NCBI GenBank assembly: GCA_963809895.1
Contig: CAWELD010000003.1
Location: 2,848,001-2,912,000 of the forward strand
DNA: 64,000 nucleotides
Direction of reading: 5' to 3'
From: an uncultured Gemmatimonadales bacterium
GTDB lineage: Bacteria > Gemmatimonadota > Gemmatimonadetes > Longimicrobiales > Gaopeijiaceae
Part shown: piece by piece, positions 39,826 to 48,760 of the stretch
Layout of the letters: every line of letters begins with the position of its first letter
How positions within the stretch are numbered: the first letter of the stretch is position 1
Notes under the pieces: model-generated
The model's database searches: none
What the model saw: only the letters and a program-made list of their open reading frames with translations
What the model was told of the DNA's origin: nothing
Translations under genes and position numbers: made by a program

Positions 39826-40221
39826 TCAAGGCGGCCGGACGAAGGACTCGAAGAGACGATCGAGCTCGACGGCCGGATGGTCACAGACGCCCTCGTGCAC
39901 CGGCGAGCACTGCAGCACGTCCGATCGGGGTGACGTGATCCAGTGGAAACGCTCCGAGGGCGGCGCCAGCGCCACCGGTCCCGCTTCGGCGTCACCCTGG
40001 CAGACCGCCCGCGCCGACAGCAGATAGCGCTGGAGCAGCTCCACATCGGTCTCGGGCACGCGACGCCGCAACTCGGCAGCATCGTCCAGAACGCGGATCC
40101 CGAGGTACTCGCGGGTGCGGGCGTGGAGCACGACCCCGACGTTGGTGAACGCGCCGAGATGAACGTGCGGCACCGCGCGCAGCACGGCGAAGGCGTAGGC
40201 GACCGAGCCCTCGGAGCTCAT
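39826..40221 (-). CDS. DUF3037 domain protein
   Basis: YAFAVLRAVP...NVGVVL...ERFHWITSPRSDVLQCSPVHEG; ATGA overlap with the kinase. Confidence 0.85.
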   Translation of the reverse strand: MSSEGSVAYAFAVLRAVPHVHLGAFTNVGVVLHARTREYLGIRVLDDAAELRRRVPETDVELLQRYLLSARAVCQGDAEAGPVALAPPSERFHWITSPRSDVLQCSPVHEGVCDHPAVELDRLFESFVRPP

Positions 40222-41051
40222 CGCCGGGCCTGCAGCCGAGTGGGAGGGCTGTCCGCTCGGCGCTGCTTGGCGGCGGCGGCTTCCTCCACGAACGCGCGCC
40301 GGGCGCCGAGGCGAGTGAGGAGGTAGCGCCGGTAGCGGGCACGGGCCTCGTCGCCGGTGGTGAACGGATCCACCTCGGGTCGGTCCAGGAGGAGATCGTC
40401 GGGCACGGCCTGGAGCACGTCGGTGAGCAGCTCGGGGGTCAGGCGCGCGCTCATGCGACGGTCGGCGTCGCCGAGGTCTCCGGCGCGGGCCAGGAGCACG
40501 TGATCGCGGATCAGCGCGAAGGGCGTCGTGGTCCTCGCGTCGTCCACGCGGCTCCAGTCGTGGTGGGCGTACAGGGCGGCGCCGTGATCGATGAGCCAGG
40601 CACGCCGCTCCCAGACCAGCAGATTGGGGTTGCGGTGCGTGCGGTCGGGGTTGGTGACGTATGCATCGAACCACACCAGATCTGCCGCGAGCTCCGCCGA
40701 TACCAGCTCACCGGCCGCCATCTCGTCGTAGTTGAAGGCACCGTCGAGATAGCGCATGGCCACGTTGATTCCGTGGCTGGCCCGCAAAATGTCCTGGATC
40801 TCGGGATCGGGCTCCTGGCGCCCGAAGGCCGGCGCCACCTCGATGAGCGCCAGGTCGGGGACCGGGAGGCCGAGCTCCCGGGCGAGCAGTCCCACCACCA
40901 GCTCGGCGACGAGGGCCTTGGCACCCTGGCCCGCACCGCGGAACTTCGCGACGTAGAGGCCGTCGTCGGTGTCCACGACCGCCGGCAGCGATCCGCCCTC
41001 CCGAAGAGGCTGCACGTACCGGGTGGCCCGGTGCTTCGCCAGCTCGATCAT
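40218..41051 (-). CDS. HipA-like kinase
   Basis: LREGGSLP P-loop, VAKFRGAGQG, NPDRTHRNPN and LIDHG. Confidence 0.85.
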   Translation of the reverse strand: MIELAKHRATRYVQPLREGGSLPAVVDTDDGLYVAKFRGAGQGAKALVAELVVGLLARELGLPVPDLALIEVAPAFGRQEPDPEIQDILRASHGINVAMRYLDGAFNYDEMAAGELVSAELAADLVWFDAYVTNPDRTHRNPNLLVWERRAWLIDHGAALYAHHDWSRVDDARTTTPFALIRDHVLLARAGDLGDADRRMSARLTPELLTDVLQAVPDDLLLDRPEVDPFTTGDEARARYRRYLLTRLGARRAFVEEAAAAKQRRADSPPTRLQARR

Positions 41052-41163
41052 GACGTACAGCTTACCGGGCCGGAGCGGACCGCGGGAGGGGCGGTCACGG
41101 TTGCGCACGGGAAGAGCGGTCCTCTATCGTCGATGTGAGGCCCTCCCCCAATCCCCCGGCGCC

Positions 41164-41721
41164 ATGTCCGGACCTCCGGATGTCACCCAGCTGCTGGCCG
41201 CCATTCGCGGCGGGGACCGGAGCTCGTTCGAGCCCCTCTTCCGGCTGGTCTACGAGGAGCTGTATCGGCGGGCCCATTTTCAGCGGCGAGACGGCCCCGC
41301 CACCCCCACGCTCAACACGACGGCGCTGGTCCACGAAGCCTATCTGAAGCTCGCAGGCGCCGGAAACCCGGACTGGGAGGATCGGCGACACTTCTTTCGC
41401 GTGGCCGCACGGGCCATGCGTCAGATTCTCGTGGACGCCGCCCGCCGGCGTGCCGCCGGGAAGCGGGGTGGGGGCGGACCCGTGCTGGATCTCGACGCCG
41501 CCGAGATCGGCGCCGATACGCAGGCCGACGAGATCCTGGCCCTCGAAGAGGCGCTCTCACGTCTGGAGGGCATGAATCCCCGTCTCGCGCGCGTGGTCGA
41601 GTTGCGGTTCTTCGCGGGCCTCACGGTGGAAGAGACCGCGGAGGCCATGGAGACGTCGGAGCGCACGGTGAAGCGCGATTGGCGATTGGCCCGGGCCTTT
41701 CTCCATCAGGCCCTCACATGA
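41164..41721 (+). CDS. ECF sigma factor, ECF43/TIGR02999 type (kinase-associated)
   Basis: DVTQLL, TLNTTALVHEAYLKL, AARAMRQILVDAARR and TVKRDWRLARAFL. Confidence 0.9.
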   Translation: MSGPPDVTQLLAAIRGGDRSSFEPLFRLVYEELYRRAHFQRRDGPATPTLNTTALVHEAYLKLAGAGNPDWEDRRHFFRVAARAMRQILVDAARRRAAGKRGGGGPVLDLDAAEIGADTQADEILALEEALSRLEGMNPRLARVVELRFFAGLTVEETAEAMETSERTVKRDWRLARAFLHQALT

Positions 41722-44600
41722 CCGACCGACCCCTGGACTCCGCCACCTGGTCGAGGATCGAGGCCATCTTCCAGGAGGCGCTGGATCGTCCGGCCGACCA
41801 GCGCGACGCGTTCGTGCGTGTGGCCTGCGCGGGCGAAGGAGGGCTCGTAGAACGGGTCGAGGCGCTCCTGGCCGCGGACCGCGCGGGGCCGGGGCTCCTG
41901 GACACCTCTCCGCTGGAGGCCGCGGGCCTGCTCCTGGCCGGCGCCCCGTCGACGGGTGATCTTCCAGCCACCGTCCCGCTACCCCCCGATACACGGGTCG
42001 GCCCCTTCCGCGTCCTGGACGTGCTGGGACGGGGTGGGATGGGCACCGTCTACCGTGCCGAGCGCGCCGACGGGGCCTACCAGCAGCAGGTGGCGCTCAA
42101 GGTCGTGAGCGGAGGTCCGCTGGCCGGGGACCTCGAGCGGCGCTTCCTCCGGGAGCGGCAGATCCTGGCGCGCCTACAACACCCTGGGATCTCCCGGCTC
42201 CTGGACGGGGGCCTCACCGACGAGGGCCACCCCTATCTCGCCATGGAGTTGGTGGAAGGCCGACCCCTCCTGGAATGGGCGGAGGCCACGGATGCCGATC
42301 TGGAAGCCCGCATCCGGCTCATGTTGGAAATCTGCGACGCGGTGCAGTACGCCCACCGGAACCTGGTGGTCCACCGCGACCTGAAGCCCTCCAACGTGCT
42401 CGTGGATGCCGGCGGCCGGCCCCACCTGCTGGACTTCGGAATCGCCCATCTGCTGGAAGCGGACGCCGGGGATCCCGACGATGCGGCGACTCGCACGGGG
42501 ATGCTCCTGCTCACGCCGCAGTACGCCGCTCCGGAACAACTCCGCGGCGGAACCGCCACCACGGCGACCGACGTCTACTCGCTGGGGGCGGTCCTCTACG
42601 AGTTGCTGGCGCGGCGCCGGCCCTTCGAGGGCGATCTCGGGTCCTGGGAGCAGATGCTGCAATCGACCCGCGAGGATCCACCCATCATGAGCCGCGCGGT
42701 GCCCGCCGACGAGGTTCACCTCCGGCGGTCGCTCCGGGGGGATCTGGATACGATCGTGGCCAAGGCGCTCCGACGGCAGCCGGAGCGGCGCTATCCGTCG
42801 GTCGAGGCCCTCGCCGACGATCTAGAACGGTATCTGGCGCAGCGCCCGGTGTCGGCACGGCCCGACACCCTGACCTACCGCCTCGGCCGCTACGTGCGCC
42901 GGCACAGAACCGGAGTGGCCGCCGCCCTGACCGTGGCCGTGGCCCTGGTAGCGGGCCTGGCGTCGACGGCCTGGCAGGCCCGGGCCACGCGCCTCGAGGC
43001 CAGGCGCACGCGCGAGGTGAGCGACTTCCTCTTCAGCCTCTTCGACGCCGCCGACCCCGAGCAGAATGCCGGCGTCATTCCCGACGCCCGCGAGCTCCTG
43101 GACCGAGGTGCCGCGCGCGTCCGGTCGCTCGGCACCGGCGCGGGCCCGGAGATCCGCGCGGACATCTTCACCACGCTGGGTCTCCTCTACCAGAAGCTCG
43201 GCCTGCTGGAGCGGGCGGACACGCTGCTGCGAGAGGCGGTCGAACTCGCCCAGAGCTCGCTGGGCGACGACGAGCGGACCGCGCGGGCGTTGGGCGCCCT
43301 GGGCACGGTGGCCATCGACGAAGGGCGCTACCAGGAGGCGGAGGACGTGCTGCGGCGGAGCCTCGAGCTTCGCGACCGGATCGGCTCTCCGGACACGCTC
43401 CGCGCCGAGGCGCTGGGGAACCTGGGAGTTCTGCAGAGCGTCGCGGGGCGCCTGGACAGCGCCGTGGCGCTCCATCGCCGCGCGCTGGCCATAGACCGTC
43501 GGGCATTGGGCCCCGCCGCTCCGCGGGTGGCCACGGACCTCAACAACCTGGGGCTCGCCCTGGACGGAGCCGGGAATCCCGAGGAAGCCGAGCCGTTGCT
43601 GCGCGACGCGCTGCGCATTCGCCTGGCCGCCTACGGGGAGCGCCACCCGCTGGTGGCCGCGAGCTACGCCAACCTGGCCGCGCCCGTGGGCAGTCTGGGC
43701 GACCTGGCCGGCGCCGAAGCACTCCACCGGAAGGCGCTGGCGATCCGCCGGGAAATCTACGGCAGCGAGCACCCGGACATCGCCCGCGCCCTGGACCAGA
43801 TCGCCCTGTACGCCGACCAGCAGGGGCGCTTCCACGAGGCAGACAGCCTCTATCGCGAAGCGTTGGCCATGAGGCGGCGGCTTCTCGGAGAGGACCATCC
43901 GGACGTGGCCGCAACGCTGAACAACCTCGCCACGCTTCGCTACCGCATGGGCGACTACGCCGGGGCCGCTGCTGCCCAGGTGGAAGTGGTGCGGCTGTGG
44001 AAGGAGAGCCTGGGGCCGGAACACGCGAACTACGCCACCGCCCTCAACAACCTGGGCGTCATGCGGATGAAGGCCGGCGATCCGGTCCAGGGAGAACGGG
44101 ACCTGGAAGAAGCCCTGGCCCTGCGAAGGCGGATCCGGGGCGAGATGCACGAAGACGTGGGCGCCAGTCTCCTCAACGTGGGGGACGCCCGGCGTGCCCG
44201 AGGGCGCCTTTCGGAGGCGGACTCCCTGTACAGGGCGGGGCTCGTCGTGCTCCGCGAATCCACGGTGCCGGGGCACTGGCGCCGTGCCGACGCCGAGGTG
44301 CGCCTGGGGCGCGTGTTGGTGGAGGAGGGGCGTCCCGGTGACGCGATCGACATCCTGCGTGACGGGCTGGACATCCGCGAGGCCACCTTCGTAGAGGACG
44401 ACCTGCGCATCGCCGAGGCCCGCCTGTGGCTGGGCGTTGCCCTGGCCCATGCGGGCAGCACCGCCGAGGCCCGGCCCCTCCTCTCGGAGGCTCGGGACAG
44501 CTACCTGGAGCAGAGGGGACCGGACGACGCCGACGCGCTGCGCGCGGCCGCGGAGCTGGCCCGACTCGGGGCCCCTGAGCGGCCCGCCGACGGGCGGTAG
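41718..44600 (+). CDS. Membrane Ser/Thr (Hanks) kinase with extracytoplasmic TPR repeats
   Basis: GRGGMG, VALK, HRDLKPSN, DFG and APE; one TM helix; repeated HPDVAATLNNLA-type TPRs. Confidence 0.95.
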   Translation: MTDRPLDSATWSRIEAIFQEALDRPADQRDAFVRVACAGEGGLVERVEALLAADRAGPGLLDTSPLEAAGLLLAGAPSTGDLPATVPLPPDTRVGPFRVLDVLGRGGMGTVYRAERADGAYQQQVALKVVSGGPLAGDLERRFLRERQILARLQHPGISRLLDGGLTDEGHPYLAMELVEGRPLLEWAEATDADLEARIRLMLEICDAVQYAHRNLVVHRDLKPSNVLVDAGGRPHLLDFGIAHLLEADAGDPDDAATRTGMLLLTPQYAAPEQLRGGTATTATDVYSLGAVLYELLARRRPFEGDLGSWEQMLQSTREDPPIMSRAVPADEVHLRRSLRGDLDTIVAKALRRQPERRYPSVEALADDLERYLAQRPVSARPDTLTYRLGRYVRRHRTGVAAALTVAVALVAGLASTAWQARATRLEARRTREVSDFLFSLFDAADPEQNAGVIPDARELLDRGAARVRSLGTGAGPEIRADIFTTLGLLYQKLGLLERADTLLREAVELAQSSLGDDERTARALGALGTVAIDEGRYQEAEDVLRRSLELRDRIGSPDTLRAEALGNLGVLQSVAGRLDSAVALHRRALAIDRRALGPAAPRVATDLNNLGLALDGAGNPEEAEPLLRDALRIRLAAYGERHPLVAASYANLAAPVGSLGDLAGAEALHRKALAIRREIYGSEHPDIARALDQIALYADQQGRFHEADSLYREALAMRRRLLGEDHPDVAATLNNLATLRYRMGDYAGAAAAQVEVVRLWKESLGPEHANYATALNNLGVMRMKAGDPVQGERDLEEALALRRRIRGEMHEDVGASLLNVGDARRARGRLSEADSLYRAGLVVLRESTVPGHWRRADAEVRLGRVLVEEGRPGDAIDILRDGLDIREATFVEDDLRIAEARLWLGVALAHAGSTAEARPLLSEARDSYLEQRGPDDADALRAAAELARLGAPERPADGR

Positions 44601-44622
44601 TCCGGACCTGGTGCCACCGGCC

Positions 44623-45213
44623 TCACCGCAACCGGGACATGACGATCCCGGCCAGCGTCGCCACGGCCTCCCGCGTCGGTCCGTTCAGGAGCACCACCAC
44701 GGCGTCCTGGGCGTCCTTCTCGACCGTGGCGGTCCAGCCACCTTCGCCGGCATCACGCAACGCGGCGGCATGGCCGTCCAGCGACAGCGCACTCCAGCGT
44801 CCGCCCTCGACGAGGCTCGCCATGTCCGGGTCGGCGTCGTCCAGGTCCTCGTTCAGGCGCGCGGCGAGGGCGGCGGAGGTCGTGGGCGGGCCCCACGAGC
44901 CGCTCTGTCGGACGGTGAGGTTCACCGCATTGGGCCATCCACCGTCATAGATGCAGATCGTCACCAGGCTCCTGGGCACGCCCTCGGGGGCGTAGCCACC
45001 GTCCGCTTCCCGCCGCGTGGGCTCGGCCACCGGGACGCCGATGGCGTCTCCCACCTCGGCCGGCGTGAGGAGGGAGCACGCGTCGATGCGCGTGAGCGAT
45101 TCGGCCACCCGGCTCCCCCCTTCGGAGTCTCCGCCCCCCCCGCAGGCCAGGGTGAAGATCGGCGCGCAGAGGGCGACGCTGACGAGCGTGGGTGCGCGTG
45201 AGAACGATCGCAT
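44623..45213 (-). CDS. Hypothetical lipoprotein (DACxLLT...CxY, DUF3558-like)
   Basis: Lipobox TLAC; DACSLLTPAEV...TICIY. Confidence 0.7.
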   Translation of the reverse strand: MRSFSRAPTLVSVALCAPIFTLACGGGGDSEGGSRVAESLTRIDACSLLTPAEVGDAIGVPVAEPTRREADGGYAPEGVPRSLVTICIYDGGWPNAVNLTVRQSGSWGPPTTSAALAARLNEDLDDADPDMASLVEGGRWSALSLDGHAAALRDAGEGGWTATVEKDAQDAVVVLLNGPTREAVATLAGIVMSRLR

Positions 45214-45255
45214 GGAATCTCTCCGTTCGTTGACGTTGGACAACGTAGCACCAGC

Positions 45256-45909
45256 TCAGTCCGATCGGCGGTACCGGTCGGCCATGAACTGGTAGTAGAT
45301 GAAACCGTATCGGTCGAACCAGGCATCCTCGCCGAAGATCTGCGCCTCGCAGGCGGCGATCCCCTTCAGCGCGGCTTCGAGCGTGCCCACCAACTCCGCG
45401 TACTTGTCGTCGTAGGCAGCCTGTACCCCCTTCTGGGACGTCTGGATCTTCGTGCGCTCGCGCATCCAGGCGAGGCCCGCAACAGGGTGGACGCCCGCAA
45501 TCGCGTCGCCGAAGGCGATGGCCTCCTTGATCATGTCCTGGCTCGAGGAGTAGATGCGCCTGAGCGCTTCGAACCGGAGGCGGACCCGCTGTAGATCGGC
45601 GTAGGGTTGCTCGAAACACGCCTGGCACTCGGCCGACCCCTTGCAGCGGGAGGGCAGTTGGGGCATTCCCGGCGGAGAGGGGTCGGGATCGTACCCCGCG
45701 TCCTTCGGAGAGAACGGATCCATCCAGTCGAAGATCTTCTTGCCGCCGTCGAAGGACTTCTTGATGGGATCGTAGGCCTTCTTGCTGTTGTCCCACATCT
45801 TCTTCAGGGCGGACCAATCGTCCAGTCCGGGCGCCAGCGAGGACTGGGCGGACGCCGGCAGGTGGAACAGGGCGCACAGGCCCGCCAGGAGGAGCACGCG
45901 ACGAATCAT
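45256..45909 (-). CDS. Hypothetical secreted alpha-helical protein
   Basis: Sec signal ending ASA-Q; coding-like codon usage; ATGA overlap with the upstream gene. Confidence 0.8.
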   Translation of the reverse strand: MIRRVLLLAGLCALFHLPASAQSSLAPGLDDWSALKKMWDNSKKAYDPIKKSFDGGKKIFDWMDPFSPKDAGYDPDPSPPGMPQLPSRCKGSAECQACFEQPYADLQRVRLRFEALRRIYSSSQDMIKEAIAFGDAIAGVHPVAGLAWMRERTKIQTSQKGVQAAYDDKYAELVGTLEAALKGIAACEAQIFGEDAWFDRYGFIYYQFMADRYRRSD

Positions 45910-46589
45910 GAGACGTTCCTCCGCACCAGGAGCACGGTAGCCAGGACCAGGAGGCCACCCGCCAGGAAAGCAGCGAGCACGACGAAGGGGACGGAGGCCC
46001 CTCGGCCCGACGCTCCCTCCGACGACGCCACGCCAGAGGCCGGCTCCAGCGACGCCCGGGTCGCGCGAAACTCCTCGGGCGTGAGGATCACGTCGTCGGC
46101 GAGGTCGGGGGTGACCTCGTCACCCACCCAGGCCACGAGTCCGAAGGCGACGGGGGTAGGTCCTGGACCCCGCACACGGATGTTCACCACACCCTCGGTC
46201 CGGAGCTCGAAGGTGACTGCGCCGTCGGGGCCCGTCGCCCCCGACCGAAGCGGGTCCGTCCATCCGTCGGCCATGAGATCCACGCGGACGTCGTCGCCGG
46301 CGGCGGACAGCACCGTGATGACCGTGGGCTGGAGAACGCTCAGGTTCCCGAGGCGTAGCTTGAGCCCCGCGCTGTCGACCTGCCCGTGACGGATGGCCAC
46401 CTCGCCCCCGGGCAACGCCGGATCCGGCCGGCGGTCCAGCACCGTGACGTCCGGTGCCGGGTCCGTGGGGTCGAAGGAGGGCACGTCTTCCCCCGCGGGG
46501 TCCTGGGCTCGGGCCTGCGGGGAAGCGACGCACAGCGCCATGGGGACGATCGCGCAGACGAGCCACCGCCGTCGTATGCTCTCCAGCAT
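45906..46589 (-). CDS. Hypothetical exported protein with C-terminal membrane anchor
   Basis: AGGAGG SD, signal peptide ending ARA-Q, beta-rich core, Ser/Gly linker, TM helix and RRN tail. Confidence 0.75.
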   Translation of the reverse strand: MLESIRRRWLVCAIVPMALCVASPQARAQDPAGEDVPSFDPTDPAPDVTVLDRRPDPALPGGEVAIRHGQVDSAGLKLRLGNLSVLQPTVITVLSAAGDDVRVDLMADGWTDPLRSGATGPDGAVTFELRTEGVVNIRVRGPGPTPVAFGLVAWVGDEVTPDLADDVILTPEEFRATRASLEPASGVASSEGASGRGASVPFVVLAAFLAGGLLVLATVLLVRRNVS

Positions 46590-46644
46590 GCGGTCCTCCT
46601 GTGGGGGTGCGGCGGGCGGCGGAGTTCCAACCGCCGTCATCACC

Positions 46645-46718
46645 CACCCAGACGGAACTCCGGGCGATGAGGGGACAGGGCACCCTGGCCCCCCGCCGTC
46701 GCACCCTGCGTCTGGATG
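46645..46718. promoter_or_regulatory. Mirror-image ECF-type promoters CCCTGKCCCC-N16-CGTCTGGRTG
   Basis: Minus strand: TGTCCCC (46677-46671), N16, CGTCTGG (46654-46648). Plus strand: TGGCCCC (46686-46692), N16, CGTCTGG (46709-46715). Confidence 0.7.
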
Positions 46719-46781
46719 ATCGGGACCGGCGGCACACGCCCCGAACCCCGAGGTCCCGCCTGCTACCTTCCGGAGGCCCCC

Positions 46782-48179
46782 ATGCCGCGACACACCACCC
46801 TCACCCTGATGCTCCTCGCCCAGGTCATCGCCTGCGGTGCATGCGGACGCGACGGCTCGGAGGCGCGAGCTTCGTCGGACGAGGTGCCTGCCGGCGCTCC
46901 GGGGGTGGCCGATCCGGTCGCGTCGCCGGCCCCCGCTGAAGCGTCTCCAGCACCCACCACCGGGACCGGGCTCGACGGACTCCTCGCCGGCCTCGATCAG
47001 CTCGCCGATGCAGTGTCCGGAGACGAGACGCCCCTGGAGCCGTGGCCACTGGAGCAGCCGCCGGCGGGCTGGGAAGAGGCGGCGCCTGACGCCATCCCCC
47101 TGACCGAGGGCCTCACCGTCGTGACGGCCGTCGCCGAACCCCGGGGCGACTACGAGTCCATGAAGCAGGTGCGCGAGGCCGACGAGTCGTCGGTGCTCAT
47201 CCACTACCGCACCCGGAGCGACGACCCGGCGCTGCCCCGGTTGGAGCAATGGCGGCGGGTGTCACGCGAAGACCTTCGTGAAGCCCGGGGCTATCGCATG
47301 ATCTTCGGCCAGGACGACGAGTCCTCGTATCCCGGCCAGACGGCTCTGGGCGTGTCCACCGCGGTGCTGGACGCGCTCAGGCGCGGGGATCAGCCGGAGT
47401 TCGAGTTGACGGGAGACGCCGATATGTTCGCGAGCCTGATGGGGGCCGCATTCGGCGGAGATCCCGTTCCCCTCCGCGGCCAGCTTCAGCGGGTGGAAGG
47501 CCCGCCGCAGGCCGTTCCCGTCCTCCTCAACGGCAGCCGGGTCTGGCTGCCCGCCATCCACGCCCGCGGCACCCTTCAGGGACTCCTGAGCCCGTTCCCG
47601 GTGGAGTTCTGGTTCCTGGACGATTCGAGCAATCCCCTCACACTCCGCGCCCATACGACGAGCATGCGCCTTCAAGCGGTCCGCATCGACCTGCCCGCGC
47701 CCGCGGCCGTGGCCACGGAGCTGGAGAGCGCGCTGGCCTCACGGGAGTCCGCCGAACTCTTCGGCGTCTACTTCGAGTTCGCCAGCGACGAGCTCCAGCC
47801 CGAATCGGACGCCGTGTTGGACGAGGTGGCAGCCCTCCTGGAGCGACATCCCGACTGGCGGCTGCGTGTGGAGGGCCACACCGACGACGTGGGCCGCCCG
47901 GAGGACAACCTGGATCTCTCCGAGCGTCGCGCCGCCGCAGTGGTGGCGGCCCTCGCAGCCCGTGTCCCGGCGGCCGTGGACCGGCTGGAAGCCCGGGGGT
48001 TCGGGGAGACCCGTCCCCGCGAGTCCAACGAGACCCTGGAAGGGCGGGCCCGCAATCGTCGGGTGGAGCTCGCGCGCGTCGGCGCGGACGCCCTCCCTGC
48101 CCCACTCCCGGATTCCGGGCGGGGACGTTCGTGGGACCGCACCCGCATCGCAGGCCTGGCAGCCCGGAGAAACCCATGA
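46782..48179 (+). CDS. OmpA-family (peptidoglycan-binding) lipoprotein with large N-terminal domain
   Basis: GGAGG SD, Cys-ending signal; C-terminal VYFEFAS...VEGHTDDVG...LSERRA...RARNRRVEL. Confidence 0.88.
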   Translation: MPRHTTLTLMLLAQVIACGACGRDGSEARASSDEVPAGAPGVADPVASPAPAEASPAPTTGTGLDGLLAGLDQLADAVSGDETPLEPWPLEQPPAGWEEAAPDAIPLTEGLTVVTAVAEPRGDYESMKQVREADESSVLIHYRTRSDDPALPRLEQWRRVSREDLREARGYRMIFGQDDESSYPGQTALGVSTAVLDALRRGDQPEFELTGDADMFASLMGAAFGGDPVPLRGQLQRVEGPPQAVPVLLNGSRVWLPAIHARGTLQGLLSPFPVEFWFLDDSSNPLTLRAHTTSMRLQAVRIDLPAPAAVATELESALASRESAELFGVYFEFASDELQPESDAVLDEVAALLERHPDWRLRVEGHTDDVGRPEDNLDLSERRAAAVVAALAARVPAAVDRLEARGFGETRPRESNETLEGRARNRRVELARVGADALPAPLPDSGRGRSWDRTRIAGLAARRNP

Positions 48180-48760
48180 GCACCTTGTCGCCGATCCGCA
48201 CCGCCACCGCCCTCGCCGTCCTCGTCCTCGTCGCCGCCTGTGGACGGAGCCCGGACGCCGATCGCCCAGGCCAGGCACCGGAGACCGAGCCAGACGCGGC
48301 CGATGTGGCTCCGTCCGGCAGGGCCGCGGCCCCACGCGATGCATGCGAGCTCATGACCTCCCGAGAGGTCGCCGCGTTCTACGGGGGCGACGTGGAGGTG
48401 GTGGGCGTGCCCGATGCCGGCGCCACGTGGAGCTCCTGCCACTACACGACGCCGGAAGACGACTTTCCCTTCATGGAGCTCACCGTCTATTGGGAGAACG
48501 GCAGGGAAGAGTGGCGGAGCTGGCAGGCGGCCAACGGCGTGGCACCCTCGGTCATGGCGACGCCGGGCGTGAACGTCGATTCCATCATCCGGCCCGGTCC
48601 GGTGGCTGGGCTCGGCGACGCCGCCTACTACAGCTCCATGCTCCCGTCGCTCATCCTGGTGGGAGATCGCCTGCTCGAGATCGCCATCCCCCTGATGCCC
48701 GACGCGGAGATGCACTTCAGGACGATCGGCGAGACGCTCCTCTCCCGGTTGGATCGATAG
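48176..48760 (+). CDS. Hypothetical lipoprotein (DACxLMT...CxY, DUF3558-like)
   Basis: Lipobox LVAAC; DACELMTSREV...SSCHY...VAGLGDAAYY; ATGA overlap with the OmpA gene. Confidence 0.75.
   Translation: MSTLSPIRTATALAVLVLVAACGRSPDADRPGQAPETEPDAADVAPSGRAAAPRDACELMTSREVAAFYGGDVEVVGVPDAGATWSSCHYTTPEDDFPFMELTVYWENGREEWRSWQAANGVAPSVMATPGVNVDSIIRPGPVAGLGDAAYYSSMLPSLILVGDRLLEIAIPLMPDAEMHFRTIGETLLSRLDR

What the first reader, a model, noticed from the sequence alone, without database searches (positions are those of the whole stretch)
41164..48760. Candidate undescribed system: kinase/ECF-controlled divergent five-gene envelope cassette
Seen: next to the ECF43-kinase pair are two divergent operons encoding only exported proteins. 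Left arm: membrane-anchored protein, secreted helical protein, DACxLLT lipoprotein. Right arm: OmpA lipoprotein, DACxLMT lipoprotein. Both arms have ATGA overlaps, both end in a related lipoprotein, and they share twin promoters. Known: characterised ECF43 systems control antagonism or envelope defence (T6SS against amoebae, polymyxin resistance). Inference: an inducible peptidoglycan-anchored surface complex for contact sensing, defence or effector display. I recognise no named system with this gene set.
Basis: partly seen in the sequence, partly recalled or inferred. Interest (0 to 1): 0.8.

Follow-up and report, generated by a model that had tools for sequence, protein, structure and literature searches.

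The report
Two-gene envelope module with internal signal
Two neighbouring genes without a named family occur together across five bacterial phyla and are often fused into one chain that likely cuts itself at an internal export signal, giving a membrane-tethered protein and a free helical hairpin that would reinforce the cell envelope when a dedicated sensor likely switches them on.

Summary
The seven genes and the twin promoter-like sites are real. The conserved unit is not five genes but two: a membrane-anchored beta-rich protein (Mem, 45906-46589) and a secreted cysteine-stapled helical hairpin (Hel, 45256-45909). Neither has a Pfam, NCBIfam or PDB family. Mem lies directly upstream of Hel in 46 of 46 genome loci from five phyla and was not found without Hel in 520 other genomes. 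In 29 of 46 loci they are one ORF: Mem, membrane anchor, basic loop, second signal peptide, Hel. An OmpA protein is near in 32 of 46; here its N-terminal domain is predicted LolA-like. Regulation by a TPR-domain sensor recurs: ECF43/kinase here and in Nevskiales, a hybrid histidine kinase in Flavobacteriaceae, each with its own upstream motif. The module is patchy: no other genome among 400 of this phylum had it. Best reading, inferred: an inducible periplasmic envelope-reinforcement module (0.45). Rivals: toxin with tethered partner, sensor ligand, lipid shuttle. No function or interaction is shown.

The parts
41164..41721 (+). ECF43-type sigma factor, 185 aa, NTTA motif in region 2.2; one of 10 paralogs in the genome
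   Evidence: PF07638 2.6e-56, TIGR02999 over cut-off, paralogs, motif read from translation
41718..44600 (+). Hanks-type Ser/Thr kinase, one TM helix (400-418), TPR array; ATGA overlap with the sigma gene
   Evidence: Pkinase and TPR_12/TPR_10, hydropathy
44623..45213 (-). Left lipoprotein, 196 aa, DUF3558-like by relatives (accessory part)
   Evidence: no own Pfam hit; 3 of 9 homologs carry PF12079; hhalign to right lipoprotein family 92%
45256..45909 (-). Hel, 217 aa: signal peptide, variable N-terminus, predicted long helical hairpin (93-138, 142-192) with an almost uncharged Gly/Ala/Ser-rich tip (130-148), four conserved Cys, aromatic C-terminal helix (core part)
   Evidence: model pLDDT 83.8; conservation in 192 homologs; 476 clusters at 50% identity; no family
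45906..46589 (-). Mem, 227 aa: signal peptide, about 130-aa beta-rich domain (PPC-like only as a weak lead), flexible linker, C-terminal TM helix and basic tail; ATGA overlap with Hel (core part)
   Evidence: ESM Atlas lead PF04151 on 12% of one cluster; no family
46645..46680 (-). Promoter-like site for the left arm, CCCTGTCCCC-N16-CGTCTGGGTG; the CGTCT element ends 60 nt before the Mem ATG
46683..46718 (+). Promoter-like site for the right arm, CCCTGGCCCC-N16-CGTCTGGATG; the CGTCT element ends 68 nt before the OmpA ATG
46782..48179 (+). Probable lipoprotein, 465 aa: low-complexity linker, predicted LolA-like beta-cup (about 105-305), OmpA peptidoglycan-binding domain (330-426) (frequent accessory part)
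   Evidence: PF00691; model pLDDT 82; N-domain matches 4fvs Z 11.0, LmcA 9.7, DUF1849 9.5, YmcC 9.1, MucB 7.9
48176..48760 (+). Right lipoprotein, 194 aa, DUF3558 (accessory part)
   Evidence: PF12079 1.1e-8, 35.6 bits over cut-off 34.1

Best explanation
The conserved core is a pair of exported proteins, a membrane-tethered beta-rich protein (Mem) and a hairpin protein (Hel) that is likely released free, and the pair would form an inducible periplasmic module that likely reinforces or patches the cell envelope. Shown by sequence: Mem precedes Hel on the same strand in every genome locus examined, by ATGA-type overlap or short gap or as one ORF, and every long fusion scored keeps TM - basic loop - short hydrophobic stretch - small-residue motif before Hel. 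Inferred steps: (1) the TPR domain of the membrane kinase senses an outside cue and the kinase phosphorylates the NTTA threonine of the sigma factor, as in EcfP and EcfK; (2) the sigma factor fires the two back-to-back promoters; (3) Sec and signal peptidase I deliver Mem anchored in the inner membrane and Hel free in the periplasm in equal amounts, and in fused forms an internal cleavage gives the same two products; (4) Mem on its flexible stalk holds the cysteine-stapled base of the roughly 70 A hairpin, whose uncharged small-residue tip dips into a membrane leaflet or packs with other tips; (5) OmpA clamps the assembly to peptidoglycan while its LolA-like cup and the DUF3558 lipoproteins handle lipids or other hydrophobic cargo. 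Steps 4 and 5 are the weakest.
For: Mem upstream of Hel in 46 of 46 genome loci, fused in 29. Genome scans: Flavobacteriaceae Hel 22 of 301, Mem 21 of 301, all in Hel genomes, the 22nd found by a broader local profile; Vicinamibacterales 10 of 251 for both, same genomes. 43 of 47 long homologs carry Mem; 43 of 43 have TM, basic patch and second hydrophobic stretch; strict [AVS]xA in 27 of 43 against 18% in control windows and 99 of 125 in free Hel signal peptides; [AGS]Q after the second stretch in 27 of 29 fused loci by a loose pattern, control 16%, in line with the Bacteroidota Q-rule (PMC5837995, abstract). Tip has 1.2 charged and 9.7 small residues in 19 and a favourable interface energy, unlike the flanking helices. 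OmpA within 5 kb in 32 of 46 loci; LolA-like companions recur as the OmpA N-domain (9 loci), DUF4412 (10) and DUF3108-like genes. TGTCGT-N17-CGTC precedes the kinase and cassette genes in ECF43-headed Nevskiales loci; TGTTACA-N14-TGTTACA occurs in 12 of 16 flavobacterial loci with an upstream hybrid kinase and 1 of 11 without. Characterised ECF43s answer envelope or predator stress (PMC8999054, PMC13147305, passages). Gly-rich hairpin proteins SlyB and YfgH stabilise the outer membrane under stress (10.64898/2025.12.22.696046, abstract).
Against: No phenotype, expression or localisation data. No specific fold relative for Hel (best Z 8.5, generic helical bundles) and no glycine-zipper Pfam hit in 53 members. 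The tip holds a conserved Asp and His and is a tight turn in the model, so it may bind protein rather than lipid. 8 of 40 loci with full context lack both OmpA and cassette lipoproteins. A read-through fusion of two overlapping genes would give this topology by itself, so the internal signal peptide need not mean that release is selected. The promoter assignment is indirect: the window's sigma is only 38% identical to the cassette-linked Nevskiales ECF43, the motif was not enriched around 30 other ECF43 genes nor found at the nine paralogous loci, it resembles ECF41/ECF42 motifs, the published predicted ECF43 -10 is CAG, and the genome encodes ECF41- and ECF42-type factors. The patchy distribution is more typical of conflict systems than of envelope upkeep.
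Confidence: 0.45

Rival explanations
1. Hel is a membrane-active toxin or effector that would leave the cell or act on contact, and Mem is its tethered immunity protein or chaperone, co-exported one to one.
For: Amphipathic hairpin with an uncharged small-residue tip; very patchy spread; highly variable N-terminus; DUF3558 genes are enriched beside secreted ESX-4 substrates (PMC13491425, passages); an LprI lysozyme-inhibitor gene and TPR-CHAT genes are neighbours in some loci; EcfK controls a T6SS (PMC6653060, passages).
Against: No Mem without Hel in 279 + 241 genomes, whereas orphan immunity genes are common in toxin systems (own knowledge); the hairpin tip is conserved, not polymorphic; no secretion machine among recurring neighbours; flavobacterial Hel ends in the conserved helix with no room for a T9SS C-terminal domain.
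Confidence: 0.2
2. Mem and Hel are part of the signalling circuit: Hel is the ligand or damper of the TPR sensor and Mem its co-receptor, so the cassette is feedback control, not an output.
For: Two unrelated kinases next to the cassette both carry extracytoplasmic TPR arrays; Hel has a strongly conserved C-terminal helix (W197, G202, Y213 at 98-100%), and TPR arrays often bind helical peptides (own knowledge).
Against: The Vicinamibacterales loci and 11 of 27 flavobacterial loci have no such sensor nearby; six divergent flavobacterial Hel proteins keep the hairpin but have lost the aromatic C-terminal motif; ECF43-kinase loci of the same Nevskiales subclade lack Mem and Hel in the stretch fetched (gene calls by eye).
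Confidence: 0.15
3. The cassette is a trans-periplasmic shuttle for a lipid or other hydrophobic compound, with the LolA-like cup as carrier and Mem/Hel as docking scaffold, unrelated to stress.
For: LolA-like folds recur as non-homologous replacements (OmpA N-domain, DUF4412, DUF3108-like); the N-domain also occurs as a stand-alone gene in Nevskiales.
Against: No transporter, ATPase or outer-membrane channel recurs in the neighbourhoods; the cup domains are missing from many loci; Z scores of 8-11 show a fold, not a ligand.
Confidence: 0.12
4. The five genes are a chance gathering of exported-protein genes behind a mobile ECF43-kinase pair; only Mem-Hel is a unit and the twin sites are read by another ECF.
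For: A second ECF43-kinase locus of this genome is also followed by OmpA and DUF3558 genes without Mem/Hel; DUF3558 genes also follow other Nevskiales ECF43 loci; the motif resembles ECF41/42 sites.
Against: The same OmpA N-domain family and DUF3558 genes flank Mem-Hel in Acidobacteriota and Gammaproteobacteria; the twin sites are unique in the genome and serve both arms.
Confidence: 0.08

Closest known systems
ECF43 / Hanks-kinase systems: EcfK-PknS (Xanthomonas citri) and EcfP-PknT (Vibrio parahaemolyticus)
   Same: Sigma70_ECF sigma with a TTA motif, kinase in +1 with one TM helix and TPR repeats (PMC7826278 supplement part 13, PMC13147305 and PMC8999054 passages).
   Different: The adjacent genes are not a T6SS or a known polymyxin-resistance set; in Flavobacteriaceae the same output genes sit behind a hybrid histidine kinase instead.
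Glycine-zipper outer-membrane stabilisers SlyB and YfgH
   Same: Gly-rich helical element and a stress-linked envelope role (works-like comparison; 10.64898/2025.12.22.696046, abstract only).
   Different: Hel is not lipidated, has no glycine-zipper Pfam hit, has a much longer cysteine-stapled hairpin and a dedicated membrane-anchored partner.
LolA-fold carriers (BDI_3050, LmcA, DUF1849, YmcC, MucB)
   Same: Predicted fold of the OmpA N-terminal domain, Z 7.9-11.0, rmsd 3.7-4.0 A over 126-171 residues.
   Different: 5-13% identity; fused to a peptidoglycan-binding OmpA domain; ligand unknown.
DUF3558 proteins of the M. abscessus SigM/ESX-4 regulon
   Same: ECF-induced DUF3558 genes beside secreted helical proteins (PMC13491425, passages).
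   Different: No WXG100, PE/PPE or ESX genes were seen here; Hel has a Sec-type signal peptide.
Myxobacterial TraA/TraB and the proteobacterial dedicated sortase system (PdsO) (both recalled)
   Same: A C-terminally anchored exported protein paired with an OmpA-domain protein.
   Different: OmpA hits to TraB and PdsO models cover only the OmpA domain and stay far below cut-off; no CTERM model reached cut-off on 15 split Mem proteins; no barrel or sortase was seen.
Viral glycoprotein precursors cut at internal signal peptides (recalled; search listing one search shows eukaryotic and viral cases)
   Same: Ectodomain - TM - short cytoplasmic loop - second signal peptide - second ectodomain.
   Different: Analogy of topology only; no sequence or fold link.

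Membership tests
ECF43 sigma/kinase pair | Sigma70_ECF (PF07638) domain / TIGR02999 | tested here: met
ECF43 sigma/kinase pair | S/T-rich motif (QTTA/STTA) replacing DAED in region 2.2 | tested here: met
   NTTA in the translation; definition
ECF43 sigma/kinase pair | Kinase in +1 with one TM helix and TPR repeats | tested here: met
ECF43 sigma/kinase pair | Sigma activated by phosphorylation by this kinase | not testable with these tools
   needs biochemistry
ECF43 regulon (this cassette as target) | Promoter recognised by this sigma factor | tested here: inconclusive
   twin sites unique and same architecture as in Nevskiales ECF43 loci, but not general to ECF43 and similar to ECF41/42 motifs
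EcfK-type T6SS locus | T6SS structural genes beside the sigma/kinase pair | tested here: not met
   none among the genes called from 3 kb upstream to 9 kb downstream of the sigma gene; the rest of the genome was not searched for T6SS
Glycine-zipper lipoproteins (SlyB/YfgH) | Glycine-zipper Pfam domain | tested here: not met
   0 of 53 Hel members at E 0.1
Glycine-zipper lipoproteins (SlyB/YfgH) | N-terminal lipidated Cys | tested here: not met
   Hel signal ends ASA|Q; no conserved N-terminal Cys
Alpha-helical pore-forming toxins and translocators | Fold match above generic helical bundles | tested here: inconclusive
   IpaB coiled coil Z 7.8, LapD2 8.0, PspA 7.1, all within background; no Foldseek hit at E 0.001
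Alpha-helical pore-forming toxins and translocators | Membrane permeabilisation | not testable with these tools
   needs liposome or cell assay
PPC / PliG beta-sandwich (Mem) | PF04151 hit or profile match to PliG | tested here: inconclusive
   0 of 52 members hit PPC; hhalign to E. coli PliG 0.1% against a single sequence; ESM Atlas lead 0.90; Mem was not folded
C-terminal sorting-signal substrates (GlyGly-, PEP-, MYXO-CTERM, LPXTG) | NCBIfam CTERM model over cut-off | tested here: not met
   only sub-threshold hits on 15 split Mem proteins and 3 fusions
LolA-like fold (OmpA N-domain) | Curved beta-sheet cup capped by helices, matching LolA-fold structures | tested here: met
   at least eight such entries align to residues 104-306, best Z 11.0; searched as part of the full-length model
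LolA-like fold (OmpA N-domain) | Binds lipid or acyl chains | not testable with these tools
   needs ligand analysis
DUF3558 (PF12079) | Pfam score over gathering cut-off | tested here: met
   right lipoprotein 35.6 bits against 34.1; the left lipoprotein has no hit of its own
TraA/TraB outer-membrane exchange | TraB beta-barrel fused to OmpA | tested here: not met
   NF033763 64 bits against cut-off 700, OmpA part only; the model shows no barrel of that kind

The most novel reading that the evidence does not exclude
Mem-Hel is a new class of bacterial two-component envelope machine made, in many lineages, as a polyprotein that signal peptidase splits at an internal signal peptide: a tethered receptor plus a released membrane-inserting hairpin that bridges, patches or attacks membranes when a TPR-sensor kinase detects a predator or envelope-damaging agent.
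Probability: 0.3. Interest if true: 0.8.

Novelty: categorically new. Interest (0 to 1): 0.62.

Why it matters
If right, it names the output of a widespread but little-studied sensor class (ECF43/kinase and TPR hybrid kinases) in soil, wetland and marine bacteria, and adds an envelope-stress or antagonism module with no described family. The fusion gives a natural, testable case of internal signal-peptidase processing in bacteria that has likely arisen or been lost several times. The paired promoter and operator motifs give ready reporters to find what these TPR sensors detect, which is open even for PknS and PknT. Cultured, non-pathogenic carriers exist (Maribacter antarcticus DSM 21422, Sinimarinibacterium sp. 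CAU 1509). The label 'categorically new' applies to the Mem-Hel core only and rests on absence from the libraries and open literature searched; the regulator is an ordinary new member of ECF43.

Tried and rejected
Complex prediction of the Mem domain with Hel 64-217 gave 'no answer' (median 0.25, mark 0.32, controls not run) and is not used either way. Fold searches of Hel in PDB and BFVD gave only generic coiled coils; the ESM Atlas gave no usable hit for Hel. Profile searches of Mem against PDB sequences gave only chance hits; PliG comparison failed. PPC loci fetched were not used further. No RNA holder was listed for the region; this says nothing on expression. GGAACT on both strands of the intergenic region was considered as a -35 element and dropped because it has no matched -10 (read). 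The promoter motif as a general ECF43 signature was rejected. A DNA search of 19 same-genus genomes listed matches to the upstream genes, ECF/kinase paralogs, ArsR and one short OmpA piece but none to Mem, Hel or the lipoproteins among the 150 rows shown; 96 weaker rows were not listed. A weak 'midcut-by-XrtH' hit (E 0.12, far under cut-off) on the internal segment of one fusion was noted and not pursued. Patristic correlation of Mem and Hel trees (r 0.54) is not taken as co-evolution because kin share history. My gene caller mis-called strands in several high-GC loci, so counts rest on six-frame profile searches. Literature: searches for ECF43+promoter+kinase, EcfK+promoter motif+TagK (63), DUF3558/OmpA (64), EcfK+T6SS+Xanthomonas (83), DUF3558 (113), internal signal peptide terms and SlyB (125) listed no description of this gene set or of a bacterial precursor of this layout; most subscription papers and bioRxiv supplements are outside the library. 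Three look-ups of earlier scan findings by sequence or words were blank.

Full report
Observation. The sigma factor passes TIGR02999 and PF07638 and has NTTA in region 2.2; the kinase has a Pkinase domain, one TM helix and a TPR array. The genome (5.3 Mb, 11 contigs) holds ten such sigma genes, so the regulator is ordinary. The host is probably a member of Gemmatimonadota: the nearest named Hel relative is from a Gemmatimonadaceae genome and an earlier AI note on this genome uses that name; I did not test this directly. Each arm has one ATGA overlap; Hel and the left lipoprotein are 42 nt apart, and the OmpA overlap depends on a 36-residue tail that homologs lack. The lipoproteins are related only by profile. 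The 192-nt intergenic region holds two outward-facing copies of CCCTGKCCCC-N16-CGTCTGGRTG, the only two in the genome; 1 of 500 shuffles and 0 of 49 real divergent regions from the first 1.5 Mb of the contig reach that similarity.

The conserved core. Hel has 476 relatives at the 50% cluster level, 432 of them at E 1e-10 or better, so it is a discrete family. It has no Pfam, NCBIfam, Atlas or fold assignment. It was found in Gemmatimonadota, Acidobacteriota, Myxococcota, Bacteroidota and Gammaproteobacteria but is rare: 0 of 60 relatives and 0 of 400 genomes of the phylum (overlapping samples), 22 of 301 Flavobacteriaceae, 10 of 251 Vicinamibacterales, 3 of 151 genomes of the order around Sinimarinibacterium (each count includes the centre genome, which was chosen for having Hel). 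In 46 genome-derived loci (about 43 genomes; duplicate fetches L073 and L081 and all metagenome loci left out) Mem is directly upstream on the same strand in 46. Because the Mem profile was built from Hel neighbours, I ran the reverse test: Mem occurred in 21 of 301 and 10 of 251 genomes, all Hel-positive, and in none of the 520 Hel-negative ones; the one miss was recovered locally. Among 32 metagenome loci, Mem was missing only where under about 450 nt lay upstream of the Hel match centre, and in L045, where Hel is a short C-terminal piece.

The fusion. In 29 of 46 loci the two genes are one ORF; of the 17 split ones, 12 show a 4-nt overlap, one an 8-nt overlap, two a 9-nt gap and two were not resolved by the script. 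Among 192 homologous proteins, 47 are 300 aa or longer and 43 of these carry Mem. All 43 read TM helix, two or more basic residues, a 10-residue hydrophobic stretch and a small-residue motif; the strict [AVS]xA form is present in 27 of 43, against 18% of control windows and 99 of 125 free Hel signal peptides. In the fused loci a small residue followed by Gln occurs in 27 of 29 by a loose pattern (control 16%); about four of these matches lie before the probable site. Gln after the cut is the Bacteroidota rule for signal peptidase I substrates (PMC5837995, abstract and outline seen). Fused and split states change at least five times on a FastTree tree of 54 loci whose deep nodes are weak. I infer that both layouts give the same two mature products. 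A read-through of overlapping genes would create this layout without selection, so cleavage must be tested.

Anatomy. The Hel model (pLDDT 83.8) is a hairpin of two 46-51-residue helices with a short C-terminal helix. In 192 sequences C89, C95, C98 and C187 are 94-100% conserved, the tip reads AIAFGDxxSGxHGxxGLAW and the C-terminus WYxRYGFIYYxFM. The tip is almost uncharged and rich in small residues. Large low-complexity inserts in flavobacterial copies fall between the first two cysteines. Mem is beta-rich with a flexible linker and a TM anchor; a PPC-like fold is only a weak lead. The OmpA protein model (pLDDT 82) has an N-terminal domain that aligns to BDI_3050, LmcA, DUF1849, YmcC, MucB and lipid-transfer barrels (Z up to 11.0), that is, a LolA-like cup (family label from own knowledge).

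Accessory genes. Within 5 kb of Hel: OmpA in 32 of 46, the LolA-like N-domain in 9, DUF3558-like lipoproteins of the window's two families in 7, two flavobacterial lipoprotein families in 20 (one weakly like DUF3558, hhalign 64%; the other unrelated), DUF4412 in 10. Eight of 40 loci with full context have neither OmpA nor these lipoproteins. A divergent OmpA / Mem-Hel layout recurs in Vicinamibacterales; Nevskiales loci are co-directional. The exact five-gene layout was seen only here.

Regulation. ECF43-kinase pairs head the cassette in G441 and G1078, the kinase in L013, and probably in G1138 where the cassette spans two contigs. These loci carry TGTCGT-N17-CGTC before the kinase and before cassette genes, as do three loci of the same sigma subclade with other exported genes downstream (L133-L135). 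The spacing and -10 equal the window's sites. Against: 1 of 30 other ECF43 neighbourhoods had a TGTC...CGTC site at this spacing; of the 20 longer ECF43 loci fetched, only the four of that subclade show it upstream of genes; the nine paralogous loci here lack it; the window's sigma is closer to other ECF43s than to the cassette-linked one; the published predicted motifs are TGTCACA/CGTC for ECF41, TGTCGAT/CGTC for ECF42 and GTC/CAG for ECF43 (PMC7826278, supplement part 13), and this genome has ECF41- and ECF42-type genes. In Flavobacteriaceae a TPR-HisKA-HATPase-REC-AraC gene (domains checked in six loci) lies upstream in 16 of 27 loci, and TGTTACA-N14-TGTTACA is present in 12 of those 16 and 1 of the other 11. 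So two unrelated TPR sensors appear to have been recruited to the same output (inference).

Mechanism and rivals. I favour an inducible periplasmic envelope-reinforcement module (0.45): all parts are exported, the recurring partners bind peptidoglycan or have lipid-carrier folds, no export machine recurs, Mem was never found alone, and characterised ECF43s answer polymyxin or amoebae (PMC8999054, PMC13147305, PMC6653060; passages seen). SlyB and YfgH show that Gly-rich helical proteins can stabilise a stressed outer membrane (10.64898/2025.12.22.696046; abstract and outline seen), but Hel fails membership of that family. The toxin-with-partner reading (0.2) fits the hairpin, the patchy spread and the DUF3558 link to ESX-4 substrates (PMC13491425; passages seen) but not the lack of orphan Mem. 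A sensor-ligand role (0.15), a lipid shuttle (0.12) and a chance gathering (0.08) remain open. No step of function is shown.

Verdict. Nothing on this gene set came up in eight literature searches; papers of subscription journals, including the original EcfP and EcfK regulon studies, and bioRxiv supplements could not be seen and may define the ECF43 promoter. Interest 0.62.

Noticed in passing
G000:C10:591911-600755 (L082): A second ECF43-kinase locus of this genome is followed by a 1113-aa secreted BTRD1-repeat/beta-lactamase-fold protein, an OmpA protein and a DUF3558 lipoprotein, without Mem, Hel or the twin motif.
   Followed up: partly
L133-L135 (G1019, G1145, G1106): One Nevskiales ECF43 subclade carries up to four TGTCGTG-N16-CGTC sites before the kinase and a run of exported genes including a CsgG-like gene; a clean candidate ECF43 regulon.
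   Followed up: partly
L008, L009, L011, L044, L057, L063, L064: TPR-CHAT protease genes, in L044 with an ECF sigma and a TPR gene, lie 5-8 kb from the flavobacterial cassette.
   Followed up: no
L032:7402-7875: A small lipoprotein-like gene carries only the C-terminal part of Hel, between two tandem Mem-Hel cassettes.
   Followed up: no
L057, L065-L069: A divergent flavobacterial Hel subfamily keeps the hairpin and internal signal peptide but has lost the aromatic C-terminal motif.
   Followed up: partly
window 39826-41108 (-): HipA-like kinase (PF20613) and a small overlapping downstream gene, divergent from the sigma gene; conserved in many same-genus genomes without the cassette.
   Followed up: partly
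G000:C3:1817985-1818825: The ECF41-type sigma gene matches in two reading frames, a possible frameshift or assembly error.
   Followed up: no
G000:C3:2401952-2402900: One ECF43 paralog is followed by only a 91-aa kinase N-terminal remnant.
   Followed up: no
L027:5896-6300: An LprI lysozyme-inhibitor gene sits between OmpA and Mem in one metagenome locus flanked by IS genes.
   Followed up: no
L005:6790-7130: A short tandem repeat (ACACTGAAC/T units) with an inverted copy lies upstream of the fused gene.
   Followed up: no
L077: In a Vicinamibacterales bin the Mem-Hel pair groups with a flavobacterial pair at support 1.0; recent transfer or mis-binning.
   Followed up: no
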